Assembly: GCA_951406725.2 (NCBI GenBank)
Contig: OX597819.1
Coordinates: 107,756,001 to 107,820,000, forward strand
From: Octopus vulgaris
Lineage: Eukaryota
Direction: 5' to 3'
DNA length: 64,000 nucleotides
A program made the position numbers and the translations under genes. Below, in pieces: positions 27,865 through 32,536 of the stretch (position 1 is the stretch's first letter; the number at the start of each line of letters is the position of its first letter). The notes under the pieces were generated by a model, which saw nothing but the letters and a program-made list of their open reading frames with translations, did no database searches and was not told the origin of the DNA.

Positions 27865-29154
27865 ATATATATATATATATATATATATATATATACACAT
27901 ACATTTAAATATATCCATACCTACGTACATACACACGAATATACAAACATATACACACATACTGATACATAAATACGTACGAAATAATTGGCATCCAATG
28001 ACACAGTTGGTGGTGCAATATATATATTCAAAAAAATTACCGTTTTGGCTCCATAAAGACTTCCAGTAACAATAATTTACCGAAGTAACGTACTTGAAAT
28101 GATTTTTCCGGAACTGACCATTAAAAATATCAATGTTTTACAAAGACATATTCATTATATAGACCATCTGATGCTACTGTTAACATTGTTTATGAAAGAA
28201 AGGATGTACTTTCTTACAATGTAAAATCTAAAGTGATATTTGACAGAACTATTTGTAATATAATCGTATTTAGCCATTTTTTTTTATTTATTTCTATTAT
28301 ACATTTCAACGCTTACTTTCGCTATCCGTCAATCTATTTAACTGTGTACGTATAGATCTATTTATCTGTCTATTTATCTCTCTATGTATCTATCTATTTC
28401 TCTATTTCTCTATTTATCGCTCTCTCTCTCTCTCTCTCTCTTTCACACACACATATATATATATGTATATATATTTACATTTTTATACTTACTGCATTTA
28501 CAAAGCATCCTTTCTCTATCTACACACTCTCTATCCACACACACTCTGTATATATATATATATATATATATATTTTTGAATATATGCACACAAATACATG
28601 TACCTATGTATGCATTTGCACATTTATCTCTAGTTATCCGTTTTAATATATTTAATGCGCACTGCATTAAACATTAATAATAGCATTTAATAACATTCAA
28701 GTGTGTGCCTGTGAGTGCATGTGGCCGTGTGTGTGTGTACGCGTGCGCAAGAGTATATGCATGTATATGTATGAATGTATATATATGAGTGTATGTAAGT
28801 GTGAGTGTATGCACATGTGTTTATATATATATAATATATAATATATATTATGTGTTTACATGTTTGTATATATATATATATATATATGAAGGTAGGTATG
28901 TAGGTACTATCATGCATTACATATATTTTGTAACGTATGTTGAATATATATATGTATGTGTTTACATATGTGTGTGTGCGCGTGTGTGTGTGTGTATACA
29001 TGTGTGTGTGTGTGTAAATATATATATACGAAATATATGCAATGCAAGATACGTACCTACATACCTACCTTCATATATATATATATATATATATATATAT
29101 ATAGTGTAGGAAGAAATGGAGCTGAACGAAGATTTAACAAAATTCCTTTTTATT

Positions 29155-29240
29155 ATTTTCTACATATGTTTCAAAGGCTGCAAAGTCCCTAATTCGGATT
29201 GAATAAGGAGTCCATTTTGCAGCCTTCTCTTCAGGAAAAT
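29155..29240 (-). ncRNA. Type I hammerhead ribozyme, intact core, extended stem II
   Basis: AUUUUC-CUGAAGA-GAAGGCUGCAAA..UUUGCAGCCUUU-GAAA-CAUAUG-UA-GAAAAU. 6-bp stem I, 12-bp stem II, palindromic ACAUAUGU stem III, triplet GUA. Confidence 0.85.
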
Positions 29241-29657
29241 CCAGGAACTTAATTCTCCAACAAAATGCACAGCAAGCTTTTCGACAAACGCTCACGAGGA
29301 GCCCATGGAAAATATGGCACAAACTGTCTATCTATATGCGTTGACGCCAGGCTGGGTGAAGGCAGACGAGAAGGTCCGTTGAGATAATTCAAGGTTAGAA
29401 TCCGGTTAGCAGAAGGGAGTACAGGAAAATCAAAGAGTGTGAATGTATTCTGTATGACTGGTGTTGATATTTGAATTATTTTAAGAATGATTGCTAGAGT
29501 GTTTGAGTGTGAGAAATTGCTTTCATGTATGTGTGTGTGCGTCTATGTATGTGTGGCAGTGTGTTTCGAAGGCAGCAAGAGAGAGAGATATAGCAGGTAT
29601 TAATGGTCAAGCAACAGAAAAGATTGTGTCTGTGTGTTCGTCTGTAACCACTTGATA

Positions 29658-31463
29658 CAGTTTGAAGATAAGTTATGGGTTCGTAAGGATACTCCCAACG
29701 AGTTCGATGTACCTATGGGAAGTTCAGATAGCGCCCAGATTGCCGATTTGGTCGGAATCTATATTCTCTATGAATTATCCTACCAATTCCCGGACATCGG
29801 AGGCGGCCTATATCGTGACGATTGTCTGTTTTACTTACAGAACACCCCGAATAGAATGATACAGAAAACTAAAAATAGATTAGCTAGGTTCTTTAATAGG
29901 ATGGGCATGAGCATAGTTTTTGATAACGAACTTACCAAGGCAAATTTTTTAGATGTCACACTAAACCTGCATAGCGATTCTTACTGCCCCTACCACAAAC
30001 CTTCCACTAACCTAAAGTATGTCAGTGTTTTCTCTAACCACGCAAAAACTATAACAGACAATTTAGTTAAAAATATTTCTCAAAGATTAACAAATTTATC
30101 TGCCAACGTCAACATTTTTAGGCAGAAAGCGGAATTTTATAATGCCGCCCTGTCAAAAGCCGGTTATAGGGAGAAGGTAGCATATATAGACCCGGCCCTT
30201 CCGAAACCAGCATTCTATCATCAAGATAAGTCAAGTTACAATAACATAAATAATATAAGTAGTGATGGTAGCCTGAGGAATGTCGATACAAGTACAACTA
30301 GCATAAATATAGATAACATAAATAATTTGCGGTCCAGGGGAGGCCATCGTAGGCCAAAACCCATTATTCAACCCAGAGATACCCACCTTAATGTTAGAGT
30401 TGACTCTCCGAGCCAGTACAAGAACAGGAAAAACTATATTTGGTTTGTAATTCCCTTTGGTAAACAAATAAGATCTAACTTACCGTTGCAGTTTCGCCAA
30501 GCAATTACCAGAAATTTTCCCAGAAATTCGAGATATTACTCCACTGTAAATTCGCACTAAGTTAGGATAGCCTTCTCCAATACTAAAAATCTTTCACAGA
30601 TAATTTCCTCCCATAACAATAAGCTGCTAAATAAGGCCCTCTCACCCATGAGCGGAGACTCTGCTCCGTCTAATTCCAACATAACTCGCAGTAATAATAA
30701 TAATAATAGAACTGGCACAGATATTAGCAACCTCCATACCAACATTGGAGTTAGTAATAGTAATAAGGATAAGAGCAATGATCTCGTCATTAACGTAGGG
30801 GGAGTAAGTAATGGTAATAAGGATAAGAGCACTGATCTAGTCATTAATGTAGGGAGTCCCAACAATAATATTAGCAGCGGTTTTAACAACAGTAGTATTA
30901 CGGACATTATCAATCACAGCATTCACAGTAACAGGGAATATGCAGGTGATATTGCCTTAAATAGTAATGATAATGGGGTGAATAATATCGAATCCAGCGG
31001 TAGTTTTTACAATCATCATAGTAATAAGAACGCTGTATTAATATCGGAAACCAATCCCAATAGATTAAGGTTCTTATCTAGTAACTCCAAGATTAGAAAC
31101 GCCATTTACCAGTGCAGAGTTTATACTGATTCAGATGTCTACATTTATATCGGAGCTTCATCATCGAAATTGGCTGTTAGAATATCGAATCATTTTTCCA
31201 CGTTCCGTGATAAGGAAAGGCAACACGCTACGGGGCTAAGCAAATTAGTCTGGCGTTTGAAGAACGCGAATTCAACTTTTAGACTGTAATGGTCAATTTT
31301 ATCGGTGTCTTTACCGTTTGATAAGGGCAAAAAAATCTGTGCTCTTTGTAACTCGGAACTCTTTCATATTCTGTTCGCCCGAGGGCACCTTGTTAACTCG
31401 ATTGTGCAAAATTCTTTCAGATGCCCCCACTGGAAACGACATACATTTCTCTCATACCAATGA
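29658..31463 (+). pseudogene. PLE polyprotein (RT with YRDD, Asn-rich linker, GIY-YIG endonuclease), single frame with two TAA stops
   Basis: PMGS, GGLYRDDCL, FLDVTLNL, PYHKP; AIY..YIG..R..NH. After TAA 31287-89 the frame continues WSIL..CALCNSE..CPH to TGA 31461-63. After TAA 30558-60 it continues in frame VRIAFSNTKNLSQIISSHN. Confidence 0.92.
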
Positions 31464-32058
31464 AGTCTAATATAGTTAACCCCTTGATTTCCTAAGAAAA
31501 TTGAAAACATTTTGAATTAAATTTGTAAGGGGATATCCCTTCCCTGTTAGTATAAGAACTGCTAGTTGTCTAGAACTGCTGACATCCCTGACAGCAGCAC
31601 TATATCCTGCCATGACCATTGTGGACACCCCCTTTCTCTATCAAGTGGTTACAGACGAACACACAGACACAGTCTTTTCTGTTGCTTGACCATTAATACC
31701 TGCTATATCTCTCTCTCTCTTGCTGCCTTCGAAACACACTGCCACACATACATAGACGCACACACACATACATGAAAGCAATTTCTCACACTCAAACACT
31801 CTAGCAATCATTCTTAAAATAATTCAAATATCAACACCAGTCATACAGAATACATTCACACTCTTTGATTTTCCTGTACTCCCCTTCTGCTAACCGGATT
31901 CTAACCTTGAATTATCTCAACGGACCTTCTCGTCTGCCTTCACCCAGCCTGGCGTCAACGCATATAGATAGACAGTTTGTGCCATATTTTCCATGGGCTC
32001 CCCGTGAGCGTTTGTCGAAAAGCTTGCTGTGCATTTTGTTGGAGAATTAAGTTCCTGG

Positions 32059-32144
32059 ATTTTCCTGAAGAGAAGGCTGCAAAATGGACTCCTTATTCAA
32101 TCCGAATTAGGGACTTTGCAGCCTTTGAAGCATATGTAGAAAAT
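32059..32144 (+). ncRNA. Hammerhead ribozyme copy with GAAA to GAAG core substitution (32130)
   Basis: Same as the reverse complement of 29155-29240 except that A15.1 is G. Confidence 0.8.
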
Positions 32145-32536
32145 AATAAAAAGGAATTTTGTTAAATCTTCGTTCAGCTCCATTTCTTCCTACACTAAAT
32201 ATATAAAACTTCAAATTTTCGCACTAAGGCACGGATTTTAGGCCCCATGGTCGTAACCTCAACCGCGCTTTTTCTGTTGTGATTTTTGCTACCCAGGTAT
32301 CGGTTATCTTTTGAATTATCCGTAATAAGATAATTCACTTATCTACTATATATATATATATATATATATATATATATATATATATATATATATATATATA
32401 TATATATATATATATATATATATATATATATATATATATATATATATATAATATATACACAACTCTTACATGACGAAATATATTGTAAGATACGTACCTA
32501 AATACCTACCTTCATATATATATATTTATATATATA

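What the first reader, a model, noticed from the sequence alone, without database searches (positions are those of the whole stretch)
29102..32348. Young YRDD-type PLE with 556-bp inverted pLTRs; only the antisense ribozyme copy has an intact core
Seen: near-identical inverted repeats. The sense HHR has GAAG (32130) and the inverted copy has GAAA. Stem II is unusually long: 12 bp plus a further hairpin, about 55 nt in total. A read-through transcript would fold into about 550 bp of dsRNA. Inference: FDVPMGS/GLYRDD and the C-terminal CxLC..E..CxH resemble Hydra-clade C-terminal-EN PLEs. The A-to-G change could be ordinary decay, or a reverse-transcribed A-to-I edit, since cephalopod ADAR activity is high.
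Basis: partly seen in the sequence, partly recalled or inferred. Interest (0 to 1): 0.75.

Follow-up and report, generated by a model that had tools for sequence, protein, structure and literature searches.

The report
Dead Hydra-type Penelope copy, linker-less family
This is a broken copy of a known kind of jumping gene whose ribozyme change is a one-off mutation rather than a sign of RNA editing; the less ordinary part is its family, which has lost a zinc-binding piece thought to aim such elements at TA repeats yet still lands there, likely by copying one RNA from two fixed start points.

Summary
The inverted arms (29102-29657 and 31639-32197) and both hammerheads are real. The copy is a dead Hydra-type Penelope-like element: 5'-truncated, with two in-frame stops.

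The A-to-I idea fails. The G core occurs once in the genome against 374 A cores, sits in one arm only, and private A>G changes are not in excess over T>C (87 vs 76, p 0.43).

Inverted arms are common in this family (46 of 84 loci) and are published PLE anatomy.

Two family traits stand out. (1) The four-cysteine Hydra linker is present in 115 of 115 complete homologs and in 0 of 40 family segments. A conserved cysteine-free motif after an Asn-rich spacer replaces it, yet 129 of 134 3' ends abut (TA)n. (2) All 46 abutting pairs join one short-ended arm to one tail-ended arm. The arms agree at 797 of 804 polymorphic sites, and junctions show microhomology or inserts. This fits two-site target priming on one RNA (inferred).

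The scan already noted the short/long-end rule and long stem II elsewhere in this genome.

The parts
29102..29657 (-). Inverted, 5'-truncated arm of the 3' UTR/pLTR, ending at the short end ('site A') on (TA)n
29155..29240 (-). Type I hammerhead motif with family-standard core (CUGAAGA, 55-nt stem II, GAAA, palindromic stem III ACAUAUGU, predicted cleavage after GUA)
   Evidence: cleavage untested
29655..29657 (.). Head-to-head junction of the two arms with 3-nt microhomology (ATA)
   Evidence: WIN row; sibling sequence upstream
29655..31463 (+). 5'-truncated RT-thumb-spacer-GIY-YIG ORF remnant with in-frame TAA stops at 30558 and 31287
   Evidence: open 891-907 aa frames exist in sibling copies
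29703..29822 (+). RT motifs FDVPMGS and GLYRDD (Hydra-type)
30630..31103 (+). Asn/Ser-rich spacer followed by a conserved cysteine-free motif in place of the Hydra CxCX5C linker
31104..31460 (+). C-terminal GIY-YIG endonuclease without CCHH, with CxLC..E and CxH; interrupted by the stop at 31287
31639..32197 (+). Sense copy of the 3' UTR/pLTR segment that is duplicated in the inverted arm
32060..32143 (+). Hammerhead motif with the private G at 32130 (core position 15.1 by recalled numbering)
32198..32346 (+). About 150-nt tail between site A and the long end ('site B'); the same sequence precedes the ORF in a full-length sibling
   Evidence: (L044)
29075..29101 (.). Left (TA)n target tract
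32347..32450 (.). Right (TA)n target tract

Best explanation
This is a dead, 5'-truncated copy of a Hydra-type Penelope-like retrotransposon inserted in a TA microsatellite, whose two head-to-head arms were likely made by copying one RNA template twice, from two fixed start sites, with the G in one ribozyme core likely being a later one-off mutation. Shown: clade motifs, two stops, uniqueness of the G, strict pairing of one short-ended (A) with one tail-ended (B) arm, shared alleles between arms, TA-flanked ends, junction microhomology, and loss of the four-cysteine linker. Inferred mechanism: the GIY-YIG domain nicks both strands of a (TA)n tract. One freed 3' end primes reverse transcription at site A and the other at site B, 150 nt downstream on the RNA. 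Both sites carry AUAUA-like letters that could pair with the TA primer. Both cDNAs stop early and are joined by microhomology-mediated end joining, giving 3' ends that face outward and a tail on one arm only. The hammerhead is predicted to act as a dimer through its palindromic stem III in tandem transcripts, so neither copy at this locus needs to be active.
For: Clade: DKT, RW, FDVxMG, GLYRDD and CxLC..E/CxH without CCHH match the Hydra rows of PMC8557442 fig. S7 by eye. In a quick RT tree the family nests among YRDD/DKT homologs (100 and 99 SH-aLRT), with 40-47% identity to them and 17% to Nematis-type RTs of the same genome. Decay: G 1 vs A 374; A>G 87 vs T>C 76. Two-site copying: 46 of 46 abutting pairs are A+B in 84 loci. 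Neither arm is always nested (A reaches further 5' in 31, B in 14, 1 tie), which rules out fold-back of a single A- or B-primed cDNA as the general route. Arms agree at 797 of 804 polymorphic site comparisons, where about 273 disagreements were expected at random. Of 47 junctions, 21 have >=2 nt overlap and 17 have inserted letters; among no-gap junctions 70% have >=2 nt vs 19% of simulated blunt joins, p 1.6e-7. 129 of 134 3' ends abut (TA)4+ vs 257 of 4000 random window positions. PMC11167929 showed two internal RT start sites bounding the tail and extension of both target strands for a Poseidon element in vitro.
Against: Arm 5' ends lie within 15 nt of each other more often than chance (9 vs 3.0, p 0.0015), which also fits fold-back or self-priming for part of the set. 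Allele sharing could come partly from gene conversion between arms after insertion. PMC11167929 reports initiation at a site not homologous to the target and no start-site difference between strands, unlike the primer pairing inferred here. The tree is the quick version and lacks published Hydra, Poseidon, Neptune and Naiad sequences. The structural match of the EN is weak (best Foldseek E 0.039, though the top nine rows are all GIY-YIG nucleases), and Pfam GIY-YIG is below cut-off. The G could also be an assembly error.
Confidence: 0.72

Rival explanations
1. Self-priming or fold-back on an antisense or read-through template (model of PMC3846280) makes a palindromic intermediate, and the endonuclease then trims one arm at site A and the other at site B.
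For: Excess of near-palindromic junctions (9 vs 3.0 within 15 nt). Shared alleles between arms follow naturally. Both ends are TA-like sites that a TA-cutting nuclease could cut. 'EN-mediated resolution' is the published reading of the tail.
Against: It does not by itself explain 46 of 46 A+B with no A+A or B+B. Most pairs have 5' ends far apart (31 of 46 more than 50 nt; about 2 kb in the window). In 13 of 46 pairs the B arm holds only the tail and shares no sequence with the A arm.
Confidence: 0.18
2. The G at 32130 is an ADAR A-to-I edit fixed by reverse transcription, reflecting editing of the long hairpin RNA.
For: The change is A>G on the sense strand. The arm's other private substitution (32002 T>C) is A>G on the opposite strand. 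High cephalopod ADAR activity is recalled, not tested.
Against: 1 G vs 374 A. No strand bias, 87 vs 76. No run of A>G changes in this copy: 2 of 12 private changes. Present in one arm only although the arms share a template. An edit of this locus's own hairpin transcript could reach only daughter copies, and none carries G.
Confidence: 0.04
3. Two separate RNAs, or two successive insertions into one TA tract, gave the arms, and gene conversion later homogenised them.
For: 33 of 46 pairs overlap by 20 nt or more, so one RNA would have to be read twice with strand displacement. TA tracts do collect several elements.
Against: Strict A+B pairing, direct microhomology junctions without TA between the arms, and 797:7 allele agreement even in short arms.
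Confidence: 0.06

Closest known systems
Hydra clade of C-terminal EN+ PLEs, e.g. Hydra-1_Obim and Penelope-13_HM (Craig et al. 2021, PMC8557442; passages, section 11, supplement parts 1-2 and searched passages of S4/S7 seen)
   Same: DKT, YRDD, divergent RT4, no CCHH, CxxC/CxH around the catalytic E and N, 3' UTR hammerhead, (TA)n targets. Penelope-13_HM is annotated with a 5' inverted copy and an antisense HHR.
   Different: CxCX5C linker absent; about 160-aa Asn/Ser spacer; ORF about 900 aa vs about 700; RWL for RWK; stem II 55 nt vs 23 nt or less in the listed Hydra HHRs; tail about 150 nt vs 30-40. A different family from Hydra-1_Obim (HHR and protein differ, by eye).
Poseidon_Ac (PAc) in vitro system (Frangieh et al. 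2024, PMC11167929; parts 1-2 of 4 read)
   Same: Two internal RT start sites bound the tail; both target strands are nicked and extended; HHR upstream.
   Different: Other clade; short tail; start sites reported as non-homologous to the target; per-event A+B pairing not reported in the parts read.
Adineta vaga Penelope families (Arkhipova et al. 2013, PMC3846280; passages seen)
   Same: Inverted pLTR with the tail on one arm, microhomology junctions, Asn-rich insert between RT and EN.
   Different: Other families; self-priming on an antisense template proposed; loss of a linker finger not described in the passages seen.
Minimal dimeric PLE hammerheads (Cervera and De la Pena 2014, PMC4209133; parts 1-2 of 4 read)
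   Same: Type I topology, short stem I, palindromic stem III, opposite-strand pairs close together.
   Different: Their helix II is 6-8 bp; here 11-12 basal pairs, an internal loop and an apical hairpin. A similarly long stem II (53 nt) is listed for the Chlamys-group PLE-X1_sMoe.

Membership tests
EN+ Penelope-like elements | Single ORF with PLE-type RT and a GIY-YIG endonuclease | tested here: met
   Open 891-907 aa frames in siblings. EN residues Y, G, R, H, E, N invariant in a 34-row alignment. Model pLDDT 82; top nine PDB rows are GIY-YIG nucleases at weak E. Pfam E 0.009, below cut-off.
EN+ Penelope-like elements | pLTR with optional tail, direct or inverted | tested here: met
   The tail equals the 5' UTR of a full-length sibling (L044); 46 inverted pairs in 84 loci.
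EN+ Penelope-like elements | Hammerhead motif in the pLTR | tested here: met
   Core, fold z -4.9 and two-sided pair changes across related families. No Rfam hit.
EN+ Penelope-like elements | Hammerhead self-cleavage | not testable with these tools
   Needs an assay.
Hydra clade | DKT and RWK motifs, no GxKF/Y | tested here: met
   SDKTR and RIRWL (L for K) in siblings; these lie upstream of the window's truncation.
Hydra clade | C-terminal EN without CCHH, with CxxC and CxH flanking E and N | tested here: met
   IYQC..YIG, CALCNSE, LVN, CPH.
Hydra clade | CxCX5C linker upstream of the EN | tested here: not met
   0 of 40 family segments vs 115 of 115 complete homologs. Filed therefore as a derived Hydra-type variant, not a standard member.
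Hydra clade | Insertion into (TA)n | tested here: met
   129 of 134 3' ends vs 6.4% background.
Hydra clade | RT groups with Hydra in a tree of all PLE clades | tested here: inconclusive
   Nests within motif-defined Hydra-type homologs, far from Nematis-type. Quick tree; no published Hydra, Poseidon, Neptune or Naiad rows.
Nematis / Neptune / Penelope-Poseidon | CCHH in EN and DKG motif | tested here: not met
   Absent; 17% RT identity to Nematis-type L208/L209, which I labelled by their motifs.
Naiad/Chlamys | N-terminal EN | tested here: not met
   EN is C-terminal.
ADAR-edited retrocopies | Strand-biased or clustered A>G changes | tested here: not met
   87 A>G vs 76 T>C, p 0.43; 2 A>G of 12 private changes in this copy.

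The most novel reading that the evidence does not exclude
A Hydra sublineage (at least three families in this genome) has replaced the zinc-knuckle linker with a conserved metal-free motif and finds TA microsatellites mainly by telomerase-like pairing of the nicked (TA)n 3' ends with two AUAUA-type sites on a single RNA. A protein dimer would prime one strand at each site in every event, which gives the invariant short-end/tail-end architecture. The 55-nt two-tier stem II may be a protein-docking element of this lineage.
Probability: 0.3. Interest if true: 0.62.

Novelty: new variant of a known kind. Interest (0 to 1): 0.36.

Why it matters
The copy itself is ordinary decay. The family bears on two open points about Penelope-like elements. 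First, the cysteine linker has been proposed to direct TA targeting (PMC8557442, passages). A recently active family without it still hits TA almost every time, and a linker-bearing Hydra-type family sits in the same genome as a control. Second, how the inverted arms form is unresolved. Strict A+B pairing with shared alleles gives a sharp prediction for the existing in vitro system.

Tried and rejected
ADAR origin of the G: rejected. Two other strand comparisons were nominally uneven (G>A 102 vs C>T 91, p 0.036; A>C 27 vs T>G 49, p 0.012; six tests, uncorrected) and are unexplained.

Rfam: no hammerhead hit, only microsatellite-driven miRNA noise. PDB sequence search: 0 hits. Pfam on full proteins: nothing relevant; PF26215 is not in the searchable library.

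Expression: no RNA holder listed on record.

A loop II / upstream GGATT pairing was considered and dropped because it is not kept in sister families. Twin hairpins behind sites A and B (lead from e1-8673755): small hairpins with a C-YAA-G-like loop exist after both sites, but spacing and folds differ; inconclusive.

Paper searches with no useful hit: twin priming + Penelope, template switch + pLTR, 34-bp tail, A15.1 + inosine, Hydra clade + linker since 2021 (only PMC8557442). That G at core position 15.1 abolishes cleavage is recalled, not sourced. Subscription papers were not searchable; bioRxiv supplements were not seen.

Rows dropped: L147, L067, L036 (near-identical duplicates) and the second pair of L142. 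Two apparent B+B pairs in the similarity-selected set are internal 5' UTR copies, not ends.

Full report
Observation. The inverted repeat is real: 29102-29657 on the minus strand matches 31639-32197 with three internal substitutions and two small indels. Each arm holds a type I hammerhead motif: a 5-6 bp stem I, CUGAAGA, a 55-nt stem II, GAAA (left) or GAAG (right, G at 32130), and a palindromic stem III. Stem II folds with z -4.9. Between the arms lies an RT-thumb-spacer-GIY-YIG frame that starts inside the RT and has TAA stops at 30558 and 31287. At those two columns 27 of 30 and 27 of 29 aligned segments carry the open-frame letter. Both ends abut (TA)n.

Family. The window lies in a 2.8-Gb genome; the pLTR search gave 1495 first-look candidates, and the exact core 21-mer occurs 374 times. 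Among 39 RT-bearing siblings, several have open frames of 891-907 aa. Their motifs (RW, SDKT, FDVPMG, GLYRDD, no CCHH, CxLC..E, CxH) follow the Hydra rows of PMC8557442 fig. S7 by eye. A quick RT tree of 48 rows nests the family among YRDD/DKT homologs, next to a protein labelled Argonauta hians, and far from two Nematis-type RTs of the same genome (17% identity). The tree lacks published reference sequences and its careful search did not finish. The EN model (pLDDT 82) has GIY-YIG nucleases as its top nine PDB rows, at E 0.04-0.4. Nearest siblings are 97.2-97.8% identical.

The G allele. The exact 21-mer with G occurs once in the genome, here. A DNA search with the G-bearing query returned 30 loci, and only the window's sense arm had G. 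Over 190 segments from 116 loci, private substitutions on the sense strand were A>G 87 and T>C 76 with equal base exposure (p 0.43). This copy has 12 private changes, 2 of them A>G. Contigs of four runs read A at 32130, though contigs drop rare variants. The arms of this copy agree at 108 of 108 polymorphic sites and share one private change, so they came from one template, and a change in one arm most simply arose afterwards. Ordinary decay, or an assembly error, explains it. That this change inactivates a hammerhead is recalled knowledge; my search found no paper.

Architecture. I fetched the loci of the first 100 of 374 core hits (contigs C1-C5), dropped one duplicate and added the window: 84 loci. 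Of these, 46 have two abutting head-to-head arms, and all 46 pair one arm ending at site A (32197) with one ending at site B (about 150 nt further) (47 of 47 before de-duplication). The A-B tail is the element's 5' UTR, as seen in full-length sibling L044. The A arm reaches further 5' in 31 pairs and the B arm in 14; in 13 the B arm is tail only; 33 overlap by 20 nt or more. Arms agree at 797 of 804 polymorphic comparisons (32 pairs), where about 273 disagreements were expected. Of 47 junctions, 21 show >=2 nt microhomology, 9 show 0-1, and 17 have inserted letters, some templated. Both end sites carry AUAUA-like letters and grade into the TA tract. 129 of 134 3' ends abut (TA)4+ against 6.4% background.

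Mechanism. Inverted pLTRs with a one-sided tail are published (PMC8557442, PMC3846280). PMC11167929 showed two internal RT starts bounding the tail and extension of both nicked strands. The simplest reading of the counts is that each event primes one target strand at A and the other at B on one RNA, and the two truncated cDNAs are then end-joined. This is inferred. Against it, arm 5' ends coincide within 15 nt more often than chance (9 vs 3.0), as fold-back would also give, and overlapping arms need strand displacement. I formed this reading (note) before looking up earlier notes. The scan has reported a near-strict short/long-end rule in this genome (e1-8669363) and two-sided copying elsewhere; these are unchecked AI notes, not independent support.

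What differs from described Hydra elements. The four-cysteine linker is found in 115 of 115 homologs with a complete EN (5 of 120 lacked one) and in 0 of 40 family segments. In its place are a roughly 160-aa Asn/Ser spacer and a 25-aa cysteine-free motif. That motif is 84% identical between two families whose spacers are 31% identical (pN/pS 0.15 vs 0.67). RT pN/pS is 0.12-0.18 among subfamilies, so the linker-less form has been propagating under selection. A third family shows the same motif. PMC8557442 associates the linker with TA targeting but notes that Chlamys elements target other repeats without it. Asn-rich inserts are known from Adineta. Stem II of 54-60 nt recurs in at least six other sequence types in fetched loci, with two-sided pair changes in the basal stem (one of seven folds no better than shuffles). 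The canonical Hydra-type family in this genome has a short stem II, and the listed Hydra HHRs have 23 nt or less. No paper or scan note on the linker loss turned up; the library lacks most subscription journals.

Verdict. The locus is an ordinary dead copy of a new variant of a known kind. Interest is 0.36, carried by the family-level linker loss and the testable two-site rule. The bioRxiv retrozyme preprint 10.64898/2026.07.22.740005 was seen as abstract and outline only and is not relied on.

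Noticed in passing
window 28867-28937, 29027-29096, 32456-32589: The element sits in the central TA tract of a small palindromic repeat. 29027-29096 is 99% complementary to 32514-32583, and an extra, more diverged copy lies at 32456-32530, possibly a fold-back duplication of the right flank. Weaker copies occur at about 24440-24506 and 43150-43222.
   Followed up: partly
window 19011-21521, minus strand: A second, older and frameshifted Hydra-type PLE remnant (31-56% identity to the family protein) that keeps a CNCR..CP linker after an Asn-rich run.
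   Followed up: partly
family copies, positions equivalent to window 31980-31999 and 32100-32130: 5' truncation points cluster: 21 of 132 arms in the 20-nt bin at 31980 and 12 in the bin at 32100 inside stem II. This may mark an RNA 5' end or RT stalling at hairpins.
   Followed up: partly
L148-L177: A very young canonical Hydra-type family in the same genome (727-aa open frames, copies mostly 97-100% alike, CNC linker, short stem II), often in tandem or inverted arrays.
   Followed up: partly
L093, L139, L043, L040, L075, L051, L046: At least six other hammerhead sequence types with 54-60 nt stem II. Two (L043b, L051b) are attached to linker-less ENs, so long stem II and linker loss co-occur in at least three families.
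   Followed up: partly
L208 106-1182 and 1445-3787: A Nematis-type PLE (781 aa) preceded by a separate 359-aa open frame.
   Followed up: no
L078, L113, L117, L139 junctions: Junction inserts of 12-21 nt that repeat nearby element sequence (templated insertions), as expected from end joining or RT template jumps.
   Followed up: partly
window 30747-30854: 54-bp tandem duplication (91%) inside the Asn-rich spacer, variable among copies.
   Followed up: no
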